In this document: positions 12,101-15,100 of the stretch, one piece after another | How positions within the stretch are numbered: the stretch's first letter is position 1 | Layout: each line of letters begins with the position of its first letter | From: Eledone cirrhosa | Taxonomy: Eukaryota | NCBI GenBank assembly: GCA_964016885.1 | Contig: OZ024760.1 | Location: forward strand, 7,130,001-7,194,000 | Reading direction: 5' to 3' | DNA: 64,000 nt | Translations under genes and position numbers: made by a program | The notes under the pieces: model-generated | What the model was told of the DNA's origin: nothing | The model's input: only the letters and a program-made list of their open reading frames with translations | Databases searched by the model: none

Positions 12101-15100
12101 AAAAGAAATACAGCAGCCTCATATCTCGATTTTTATATTTTTCAGTTGTTTGATGCTGTAGTGAAGGAAAATGACTACCTTTTGATTGAAAGACCCTGCT
12201 ACTCAGGCACCGTTGCACTGGTAAATATTTCGCTTTATTGTCTCATGTTGAACCTCGATTGAGAATTAATCAAAATGGGTTCAGACAAGGTCGTTCTACA
12301 ATCTCTCACATTTTGACTCTTAGACGAATTATTGAGGGTGTCAAGTCAAAGAACCTTCCAGCAGTTTTAACATTTATAGACTTTAAAAAGGCCTTTGATT
12401 CAATAAAAAAAGAAAGTGAAAAAATAAAAAAAAAATTAAACAATAAAAAAAACAAAAGAGGAGGGAGAGACAGGCTCTACACCACAGTCTGTGTGGTGAT
12501 TTGGCTGTACCCCAATAACACTGGTTTACAATAGGTATGTTGTTTTCTTATGTGTATCTAGTTTACAATAGGTACACTGTATCCCTGTGTGTAACTGGTT
12601 TAGAATAGGTACACTGTATCCCTGTGTGTATTTAGTTTAAAATAGGTACACTGTATCCCTGTGTGTATCTGGTTTACAATAGGTACACTGTATCCCTGTG
12701 TGTATCTGGTTTACAATAGGTACACTGTATCCCTGTGTGTATCTAGTTTACAATAGGTATACTGTATCCCTGTGTGTATCTAGTTTGCAATAGGTACACT
12801 GTATCCCTGTGTATAACTGGTTTAGAATATGTACACTATCCCTGTGTGTATCTAGTTTACAATAGGTACACTCTATCCCTGTGTATATCTGGTTTAGAAC
12901 AGGTACACTGTATCCCTGTGTACATCTGGTTTAGAACAGGTACATTGTATCCCTGTGTATATCTAGTTTATATGATGAACTTGGCTGATCTCGCTTGGGG
13001 ATCAAGCCAGATCAGTTGGAGATGGTTGCTTCTGACTGGACTTGCTGGAAGGAGTGTTTGATCACTCTGACCCCAACAACCCTCTCAGGAATAAGTGGGC
13101 AAAGAAGGTTTTTTAGATAAATATAAACATTTTAATATGAACAGCTTTGTATTATAGAATTGGGTGCTGTTTCAAGTCGTTTGGTACCAAAAAGGTTAAA
13201 ATGGTTGTTGTTGTTTCTGTCAATATTAACATATCTGAATTTCTTTGTTTATTTCCACCTCTTTACAACAGCTAAAACCACTTCAACCCAGATTTCTTGA
13301 CATCAAAACAGACAAAGATGGAATGATTCCCAGTGAACTTCTGCAGGCTCTATCGCAATGGTCTCCTCTCGACGCTAAAAACCCCAACAGTGACATACCA
13401 AAAGTTCTCTACATGGTCCCTACTGGTGGCAATCCAACAGGCGTGAATTACTCCCTGGAAAGGAAGAAGGAAATCTATGAAATTGCCAGAACATATGACC
13501 TGTTAATTATAGAAGATGATCCTTATTACTACCTACAATATTCTAAGGTGAATCTCCATGGTTTTCTAAGATTTTCTCTGACATCTAATAACAATATATT
13601 AATAATTGTTTCCACTTTTAGCACAAGGCCGCCAAGTTTTTCCATTTTCCTGAGAATCCTAATGCACTCGCGTCTCAAAACTTATATTTTCGAGTTAATT
13701 TGTTTATATATATAATTTTTTCTACTTTAGGCACAAGGCCAGCAATTACCCAGTGCATTACTGGTACTTTATTTTATCGACCCCGTAAGGATGAAAGGCA
13801 AAGTCAACCTCGGCGGGATTTGAACTCAGATCGTAAAGGGACGTAACTATGCTGGAAAGCATGGCGTCCGACCCTCTATCGATACTGCCAATCCACCACC
13901 CTTAAATATATAATGTTATGTCTTTTCAGGATTACATTCCTAGTTTTTTTTCTCTTGATGTGGATGGGAGAGTTATCAGAGCTGATTCATTTTCAAAACT
14001 AATTTCTTCTGGGTAAGTTAAATAATATTTAACCTTATTAACCCCTGCCTCCAAAACTGCCCCCTCCCCCCCCCCCCAATTCTATGACAACAGACATCTT
14101 GTTTTAAACTATTTGTCACTCTTATCATTTTACATCCACATTTTTGTGTTGGGATGGGTTGTTTTAAGTGAATTTTACAGTTGGTTTCTCTTCCTGACAC
14201 CAACTATTTAACCCATTAGCATTTACTCTATATTTACTATTGTAACGACTTTATCTCACATAATTATCTCACATAATTATCTCACATAGTATCGAATCTA
14301 CAAAATTTTGATGTTATTTATTTTGAGAACAATACCTTAACATCAGTAGAGTGGCCAGTTACAGCCAGTTTGAACAGAAAGAGGTGAAAGAATTCTGGCT
14401 GGATATGGCTGATTTAACCTGTTGACTGCCGTGTATATTTTACACAGTTACAGTTGCTGTGGTGGGTTTTTTTTTCAGTAAAATGACTATTTTTTTTAAA
14501 CAAACATTTATTAACAACACATATCTGAATGATTGAAACATCACATCAATAAACTAGTAACCCCACCTAGCTTTGAAGTTATGAACTGTTGGAAATGAGT
14601 TCATAACTTTGAAGATATGAACTGTTGGAAATGAATTCATAACTTTGAAGATATGAACTGTTGGAAATGAGTTCATAACTTTGAAGATATGAACTGTTGG
14701 AAATTAATTCATAACTTTGAAGATATGAACTGTTGGAAATGAGTTCATAACTTTGAAGATATGAACTGTTGGAAATTAATTCATAACTTTGAAGATATGA
14801 ACTGTTGGAAACGAGTTCATAATTTTGAAGTTATGAACTGTTGGAAATTAATTCATAACTTTAAAGATATGAACTGTTGGAAATGAATTCATAACTTTGA
14901 AGATATGAACTGTTGGAAATGAGTTCATAACTTTGAAGTTATGAACTGTTGGAAATGAGTTCAAACATGTTAGGATGAGTTATTTTATCTGTAGCACTGG
15001 AATGCATACACGTTAGGACGAGTAATCTCGTCTACGGTACTGAAGAGGTTAAGTGCTAAAGAGTTAAACAGTAATCAATATCAGTATGAAGATTAATATT

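What the first reader, a model, noticed from the sequence alone, without database searches (positions are those of the whole stretch)
13272..13630. Gene-conversion tract between old AADAT paralogs that skips the active-site loop
Seen (hand counts): the paralogs are diverged (exon 7 differs at 21/83 nt; exon 1 shares 13/22 aa), yet exon 6 differs at only 19/276 nt. Its last 102 nt are identical, and identity continues 83 nt into intron 6 with 2 mismatches (B 58303-58385), ending inside a SINE tail. Eleven of the 19 differences, including synonymous ones, fall in one 33-nt island (A 13413-13445 [12 protein letters not shown] 58168-58200 [11 protein letters not shown]). Known: this segment contains the conserved Asn of the NP motif that contacts PLP and the substrate carboxylate in fold-type I aminotransferases. 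Inference: recurrent ectopic conversion homogenises the exon while selection may preserve paralog-specific active-site residues.
Basis: partly seen in the sequence, partly recalled or inferred. Interest (0 to 1): 0.72.

Follow-up and report, generated by a model that had tools for sequence, protein, structure and literature searches.

The report
Octopod enzyme twins swap one exon
Two old neighbouring copies of an octopod aminotransferase gene differ throughout except in one nearly identical exon, likely because DNA keeps being copied between them, while a 33-base patch at a predicted cofactor-binding loop stays different in two species, possibly because selection rejects copying there.

Summary
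All hand counts are right. Two tandem AADAT/KAT II-like genes of an octopod have saturated synonymous sites (pS 0.72) except in coding exon 6 (pS 0.06 outside the island). The 33-nt island is as diverged as the other exons (pS 0.68). An assembly artefact is unlikely: read-derived contigs reproduce A's exon. In a related organism both island types persist, with B's three residues unchanged, and both copies share letters absent from the window. Argonauta shows the same exon-6 homogenisation at protein level. Recurrent interlocus conversion is therefore well supported (about 0.95).

Selection on the island is less sure (about 0.55). The PLP-contact Asn is the same in both copies, other PLP contacts lie inside the converted part, and Octopus and Argonauta B copies lack B's island residues. 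Toy simulations favour a protected site, but a neutral late re-homogenisation also leaves islands. This is a new, clean member of a known class (TLR1/TLR6, oxytocin/vasopressin exon 2, opsins, copepod GOT1, frog ATP1A1).

The parts
6059..19595 (+). Gene A, AADAT/KAT II-like, 11 coding exons, 425 codons plus stop, intact
   Evidence: tblastn with octopod homologs; all internal splice sites GT/AG and one stop; groups with P0006, P0060, P0062
41386..62752 (+). Gene B, tandem paralog; coding exons 1-8 and 11 found, frame open over exons 1-8; exons 9-10 not found
   Evidence: groups with P0005, P0053, P0054 at 100%
13272..13412 (+). A exon 6, codons 1-47: 5' homogenised block (8 differences to B, pS 0.09), likely an older or patchier tract
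   Evidence: B counterpart 58027-58167
13413..13445 (+). Island in A (codons 48-58, [11 protein letters not shown]): end of a predicted strand and the loop with the Asn-Pro motif (human N202-P203)
   Evidence: secondary structure of ortholog P0054, residues 195-205
58168..58200 (+). Island in B ([11 protein letters not shown]); T48, C51 and A56 also seen in the relative's contig
13446..13630 (+). 3' tract in A: 102 exonic and 83 intronic nt, 2 differences to B
   Evidence: contig of run X1 matches 13112-13619 with 0 differences
58201..58385 (+). 3' tract in B
13595..13630 (-). SINE tail fragment that ends the tract in A; shares a variant only with B's SINE
   Evidence: 2 of 23 listed tail-core sites carry it
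58350..58473 (-). Truncated SINE in B intron 6, likely donor of A's fragment
   Evidence: direction inferred by parsimony
13706..13896 (-). Second, fuller SINE in A intron 6, likely a separate insertion
   Evidence: core 92% to B's copy, 100% to the copy at 32497
59614..59813 (.). 200-N assembly gap in gene B next to a 2.4-kb AT-rich repeat; may hide exons 9-10

Best explanation
Coding exon 6 of two old tandem AADAT-like genes is nearly identical between the copies, likely through repeated DNA-level interlocus gene conversion, and the 33-nt island is likely an unconverted relic that persists because selection rejects tracts that cross it. Shown: the counts, the saturation of the other exons, the 83-nt reach into intron 6, both island types in a second organism, and letters shared by that organism's two copies. 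Inferred: exon 6 is the longest exon (276 nt) and so keeps enough perfect match to start tracts, while the other exons have escaped. The latest intron-reaching event likely ran B to A and ended inside B's SINE. Copying B's loop into A is likely harmful, since it would change a conserved NPTG. Copying A's loop into B is likely harmful if B's residues matter. The island's own mismatches likely reinforce the barrier.
For: pS is 0.72 outside exon 6, 0.06 in exon 6 outside the island and 0.68 in the island. In run X5 (coded organism B) two 150-nt contigs of equal span cover the island. One shows B's letter at 8 of 10 listed island sites and a third, synonymous letter at the other 2; the other lacks those letters. 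Both carry 13373 T, which neither window copy has, and 13400 G. One X5 contig covers 13447-13591 with 9 differences from the window, where the window's pair differs at 1 (Poisson p 0.001 if no exchange since the split). Argonauta's pair shares 83 of 92 aa in exon 6 and three residues found in no other copy. All 6 octopod copies share a non-squid residue at 12 of 92 exon-6 sites against 3 of 207 elsewhere (p 8e-5). AU tests reject both species-clustered trees outside exon 6, and reject all 4 paralog-clustered trees for codons 11-44 plus 59-92 (p 0.042 or less). Toy simulations gave islands in 350 of 2880 runs with one protected site against 7 of 2880 neutral runs. T56 is held by 154 of 172 homologs, C51 by 1 of 172.
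Against: N54, P55 and G57 are the same in both copies, and D82, P84 and Y85 (PLP contacts in human KAT II) lie in the identical tract. Octopus and Argonauta have M48, T51 and T56 in both copies, so B's residues are lineage-limited. B's T48 equals the squid state, which suggests the island was converted once in the Octopus+Argonauta line. Their paralog differences are not enriched in codons 48-58 (1 of 9, 1 of 19, 2 of 19; p 0.45-0.93); only a window widened afterwards to 45-58 gives p 0.016-0.13 for codons 13-92. The whole exon does not reject the paralog tree (AU p 0.30). Neutral late re-homogenisation gave 58 islands in 1200 runs. Conservation of B's residues rests on 2 synonymous and 0 replacement changes seen in the island. 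The X5 flanking contigs (depth 24.6 and 25.4) are shallower than the two branches summed (31.6), so small paralog differences may be hidden. B's 3' exon half was not seen separately in run X1, and no B-type contig was seen in X4.
Confidence: 0.55

Rival explanations
1. Conversion is real but the island is neutral. The exon first drifted apart, separate 5' and 3' tracts re-homogenised it, and the remaining mismatch-rich patch now stops tracts mechanically.
For: Simulations with an early conversion-free phase and tracts that stop at mismatches gave 58 islands in 1200 runs (538 runs homogenised), 21 of them over the Asn codon (20 of 36 planned settings ran). The two flanks differ in divergence (pS 0.09 vs 0). 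B's residues are absent from other octopod B copies. PMC3728101 discusses this neutral reading for copepod GOT1 (passages).
Against: With conversion from the start, neutral runs rarely leave an island (3 of 3600; 7 of 2880). The tract ends at a junction with no further homology, so mismatch did not prevent that event. B's three residues are unchanged in a relative that differs at 9 of 145 nt nearby.
Confidence: 0.33
2. B's island was pasted in from a third, diverged copy.
For: An island with saturated synonymous sites fits any old donor; B's island residues match no Octopus or Argonauta B copy.
Against: Only two island types appear in X5 and one in X1 at 80% likeness. The named octopod hits fall into two types. 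Island pS equals the A/B background (Fisher p 0.49).
Confidence: 0.04
3. The identity is a consensus or polishing artefact of the assembly.
For: Gene B has a gap 1.3 kb downstream and lacks exons 9-10. X1 may be the assembly's own sample, and it shows only a short second contig over about 13270-13361 (inferred from depth).
Against: An X1 contig matches A 13112-13619 and an X4 contig (second sample) matches 13271-13548, both with 0 differences. Another organism shows both island types flanked by single contigs. Argonauta proteins show the same pattern.
Confidence: 0.02
4. Both copies keep the same nucleotides by purifying selection on the DNA or RNA itself (RNA structure, editing or splicing element), as proposed for shark and coelacanth neurophysin exons.
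For: PMC2656470 argues this for fish vasotocin/oxytocin exon 2 (passages). GC3 of exon 6 is not clearly raised (0.39 and 0.38 vs 0.35 and 0.38).
Against: The relative differs from both window copies at 4 listed synonymous and 2 listed intron sites of the 3' tract: the sequence changes between species but stays shared between copies. The shared stretch includes a SINE tail.
Confidence: 0.01

Closest known systems
Mammalian TLR1/TLR6 (PMC2077338, abstract)
   Same: Tandem paralogs older than the species compared; one region homogenised independently in each species, the rest clustering by ortholog.
   Different: That region is about 300 aa; here it is one 92-codon exon with an internal 11-codon island, and the rest is saturated at synonymous sites.
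Oxytocin/vasopressin exon 2 (PMC2656470, passages)
   Same: A central exon plus adjacent intron is identical between old neighbouring paralogs (bovine: 197 bp exon and 135 bp intron).
   Different: No internal island is described in the passages read; that paper prefers purifying selection for fishes, which the species-specific shared letters exclude here.
Divergence peak under conversion: red/green opsin exon 5 (PMC3924837, passages) and Leptodactylus ATP1A1 (bioRxiv 10.1101/2020.08.04.234435, abstract)
   Same: A local peak of divergence amid converted sequence, read as selection against converting those sites.
   Different: There the functional difference was measured and most of the gene is converted. 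Here only one exon is converted, function is untested, and the peak residues are not shared by all lineages.
Tigriopus GOT1p1/GOT1p2 (PMC3728101, passages)
   Same: Aminotransferase paralogs with exonic islands of divergence amid conversion; selection suggested but untested.
   Different: Population-scale data in which an island is lost in some populations; the passages read do not mention the active site.
Human KAT II / AADAT (PDB 2QLR)
   Same: Exon 6 aligns to residues 150-240 (E 4e-30); N202, P203, D230, P232 and Y233 are kept in both copies.
   Different: Substrate range of the octopod copies is unknown; loop residues 196, 199 and 204 read M/T/T in A and T/C/A in B against T/N/T in human.

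Membership tests
Interlocus gene conversion (concerted evolution) | Local identity far above the paralogs' background, at synonymous and intron sites too | tested here: met
Interlocus gene conversion (concerted evolution) | Paralogs share species-specific states while the rest of the gene clusters by paralog | tested here: met
   DNA: 13373 T in both X5 contigs, and 9 vs 1 differences. Protein. Octopus copies still cluster by paralog in exon 6.
Interlocus gene conversion (concerted evolution) | Non-reciprocal transfer rather than double crossover | not testable with these tools
   Needs phased population haplotypes; the SINE-tail junction fits one-way copying
Interlocus gene conversion (concerted evolution) | Not an assembly collapse | tested here: met
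   A confirmed by X1 and X4 contigs, and the pattern recurs in X5; B's 3' half not confirmed separately
Selection-maintained divergence peak | Peak flanked on both sides by converted sequence | tested here: met
   pS 0.09 / 0.68 / 0
Selection-maintained divergence peak | Peak residues fixed between paralogs across species | tested here: inconclusive
   Kept in X5; absent in Octopus and Argonauta proteins
Selection-maintained divergence peak | Neutral origin excluded | tested here: inconclusive
   Toy simulations disagree by scenario
Selection-maintained divergence peak | Measured functional difference at the peak | not testable with these tools
   Needs enzyme assays
AADAT / KAT II | Sequence homology and PLP-contact residues | tested here: met
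   N, D, P, Y in exon 6 and the Lys-bearing SFSK motif in exon 7. Pfam found 0 families for the 92-aa exons alone; the full-length homologs carry PF00155.
AADAT / KAT II | Kynurenine or aminoadipate transaminase activity | not testable with these tools
   Name carried over from homologs

The most novel reading that the evidence does not exclude
Exon 6 has been exchanged between the two copies since before the split of this lineage from Argonauta and Octopus, and each lineage has kept its own small set of paralog-specific residues around the PLP loop: T48/C51/A56 in this B; D/N37, I/L46 and Y/F47 in Argonauta plus Octopus; L52 in Argonauta A; C53 and A84 in Octopus A. Conversion would then act as a natural filter that marks, residue by residue, second-shell determinants of substrate choice in KAT II-type enzymes.
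Probability: 0.3. Interest if true: 0.62.

Novelty: new member of a known kind. Interest (0 to 1): 0.42.

Why it matters
It shows conversion surviving in a single exon of paralogs 45 kb apart long after synonymous saturation elsewhere, in at least two octopod lineages. Gene trees and dates that use this exon will mislead. The island is only 11 codons with three replacements and is flanked by converted sequence on both sides. That makes it a cheap test of whether divergence islands mark selected sites or mechanical barriers, and possibly a pointer to specificity residues of KAT II, an enzyme studied as a drug target (listing).

Tried and rejected
No whole genome is held for the window, so a third copy could not be excluded genome-wide.

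One search used wrong boundaries for exons 1-4, so its values for those exons and its pooled values are discarded; one search corrects them.

A search for short exon-6 fragments from more octopods gave 4 hits at 52-58% identity, none useful. No RNA holder was listed by record; X4 is read as a transcript only because its contig matches exactly one exon length. RAD run X21 gave no read over the island and 3 reads over about 13504-13575. Sixteen small-share runs and same-sample runs X2 and X3 were not all laid: 4 of 23 listed runs were laid, and its table of other letters hides 106 rows, so 6 of 18 and 6 of 8 differences of the two X5 island contigs are unseen.

No DNA of Octopus or Argonauta was available, so no dS for them. 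GENECONV was not run; Fisher and scan tests replaced it. The 68-column exon-6 subset for the AU test was chosen after viewing the alignment.

A recalled match of codon 51 to a second-shell cysteine of aspartate aminotransferase found no support in the listing and is not used. cDNA-mediated conversion is rejected because the tract enters the intron and no intron is lost.

Not in print as far as searched: 55 papers with 2 of 3 terms; none of the 20 listed holds AADAT; 0 papers; 0 papers. Subscription journals are not covered and no supplements were read. Earlier-findings look-ups showed nothing.

Full report
Setting. The window holds two head-to-tail genes of the AADAT/KAT II type. Exon 6 of gene A matches Octopus and Argonauta proteins at 82-88% and human KAT II residues 150-240. 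Gene A has 11 coding exons at 6059-19595 with canonical splice sites and one stop. Gene B at 41386-62752 has exons 1-8 and 11; exons 9-10 were not found, and a 200-N gap beside an AT-rich repeat lies where they should be. Octopus bimaculoides, O. sinensis/vulgaris and Argonauta hians each have an A-type and a B-type protein from one contig. Outside exon 6 the tree groups by paralog (B 100%, A 97%), and in both groups this species branches outside Argonauta plus Octopus. The duplication is older than these three lineages. Whether it is older than the split from squids is open: the ML tree puts B outside A plus squid at 77%, but A+B monophyly is not rejected (AU p 0.15).

Observation. Outside exon 6, pS is 0.72 and the longest identical runs are 6-20 nt. 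In exon 6, codons 1-47 have pS 0.09, codons 48-58 have 0.68 and codons 59-92 have 0. The perfect run is 139 nt, and identity ends at A 13630. Of the first 40 intron bases after exon 6, 39 match; after the other exons 8-20 do. The island is statistically like the unconverted exons (Fisher p 0.49), so it is best read as old divergence left standing rather than a recent burst.

Artefact test. Four of 23 listed runs were laid on A 13000-13700 at 80% likeness. A 508-nt contig of X1 matches 13112-13619 with no difference; X1 may be the assembly's own sample. A 1577-nt contig of X4, a second sample, matches 13271-13548 with no difference and nothing beyond. It has 543 nt before and 756 nt after, which fits a spliced message (441 and 561 coding nt). 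No B-type contig appears in X4. B's 3' half was not seen separately in X1; contig assemblies drop short variants, so this proves nothing either way.

Second species. In X5 (coded organism B) two 150-nt contigs lie on 13329-13474. One (depth 20.6, 18 differences from A) shows B's letter at 8 of 10 listed island sites and a third, synonymous letter at the other two, so it encodes T48, C51 and A56 like B. The other (depth 11, 8 differences) lacks those letters. Both carry 13373 T, found in neither window copy, and 13400 G. One contig covers 13322 upstream and one covers 13447-13591 downstream. The downstream contig differs from the window at 9 of 145 nt, while the window's own copies differ at 1. 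Without exchange since the species split, about 9 would be expected (p 0.001, equal rates assumed). So conversion happened after the split, and the island outlived it in both species. Caveats: the contigs are assigned by island type only, and the flanking contigs are shallower than the two branches summed.

Deeper history. Argonauta's pair shares 83 of 92 aa in exon 6 against 40-87% in other exons, with K25, P29 and E33 seen in no other copy; the window's pair shares M18. The Octopus pairs are less alike (73 of 92) and still cluster by paralog. All six octopod copies tested share a non-squid residue at 12 of 92 exon-6 sites against 3 of 207 in exons 1-5, 7 and 8 (p 8e-5), which points to exchange already in their common ancestor. 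AU tests reject species clustering outside exon 6 (p 1e-9 and below). They reject the four paralog trees for codons 11-44 plus 59-92 (p 0.042 or less), a subset chosen after viewing. The whole exon is undecided (best paralog tree p 0.30).

Tract end and direction. A's tract ends in a 36-nt SINE tail whose variant is shared only with B's SINE among 23 listed sites. A's fuller SINE 75 nt further on is 92% like B's copy but 100% like the copy at 32497. The X5 contig leaves the window's sequence at 13591, just before the tail. The simplest reading, inferred, is an insertion in B after the species split, then a B-to-A tract that stopped inside it. A severely truncated insertion in A copied toward B needs one more insertion but is not excluded.

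The island and the active site. In an AlphaFold model of ortholog P0054 (mean pLDDT 95.7), the island covers the last residue of a strand and the loop before the next helix. Human N202 and Y233 bind the PLP ring oxygen, D230 the ring nitrogen, and P232 packs on the ring (PMC4848902, passages). N202 is given the same role as the carboxylate-binding Asn of KAT I (PMC4926479, passages). N54, P55 and G57 are invariant in 172 of 172 homologs and equal in both copies; the set is redundant and mammal-heavy. D82, P84 and Y85 lie in the identical tract. The differing sites are human 196, 199 and 204. Thr196 and Asn199 occur in neither of the two texts searched, and Thr204 not in the one searched for it. 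B's C51 is rare (1 of 172) and A56 uncommon (7 of 172). T48 is the commonest state and the squid state. Octopus and Argonauta have M48, T51 and T56 in both copies, and their own paralog differences sit at 37, 46, 47 and 52 or 53. Enrichment there is not significant for codons 48-58 and is borderline for a window widened afterwards.

Selection or barrier. Toy fixation-level simulations, with parameters chosen by me, gave an internal island in 3 of 3600 and 7 of 2880 neutral runs when conversion acted from the start. With one protected site they gave 350 of 2880. When copies first drifted and were then re-homogenised by tracts that stop at mismatches, 58 of 1200 neutral runs left an island, 21 over the Asn codon (20 of 36 settings ran). 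These are illustrations, not tests. With the persistence of B's residues in X5 on one side and their absence in other octopods on the other, I put selection at about 0.55 and a neutral barrier at about 0.33. Conversion itself I put at about 0.95.

Comparison and verdict. Region-limited concerted evolution of old tandem paralogs is known from TLR1/TLR6 (abstract) and oxytocin/vasopressin exon 2 (passages). Divergence peaks under conversion are known from opsins (passages), frog ATP1A1 (abstract) and a copepod aminotransferase (passages). Searches found no paper on octopod AADAT duplicates (open-licence library only, no supplements read). The finding is real and well supported as conversion, untested as adaptation, and a new member of a known kind. 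Interest 0.42.

Noticed in passing
window 19548-19595 and 62705-62752: The last coding exon is also more alike than background (6 of 48 nt, 20-nt identical run, 2 of 12 same-residue codons differ, Fisher p 0.03) and both copies share a Thr found in no other species compared: possibly an older, second conversion tract.
   Followed up: partly
window 12146-12220 and 54065-54139: Exon 5 has pS 0.50 and a 16-nt identical run; one test gives p 0.012, another p 0.61.
   Followed up: partly
window 10383-10452: Stop-containing partial copy of the 3' end of A exon 4 (61 of 70 nt) inside intron 4, next to a SINE tail.
   Followed up: partly
window 59614-62200: 200-N gap followed by 2.4 kb at 92% A+T; B exons 9-10 are missing from the window.
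   Followed up: partly
window 57732-57920 and 58350-58473: B exon 6 is flanked by two SINE copies in opposite orientation, about 110 nt upstream and 50 nt downstream.
   Followed up: no
run X4 on window 13271-13548: Only the A-type exon appears in this transcript-like data set, a hint that the copies differ in expression.
   Followed up: no
P0007, P0058, P0060, P0062 (Octopus A copies): They replace the Pro equivalent to human P232 by Ala and carry Cys two residues... one residue before the conserved Asn (codon 53), both next to PLP contacts.
   Followed up: no
window 23114-26030, 26447-29313, 55137-56489: Inverted pair of diverged LINE-like fragments and two further stretches with reverse-transcriptase-like frames (label from my reading of the translations).
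   Followed up: no
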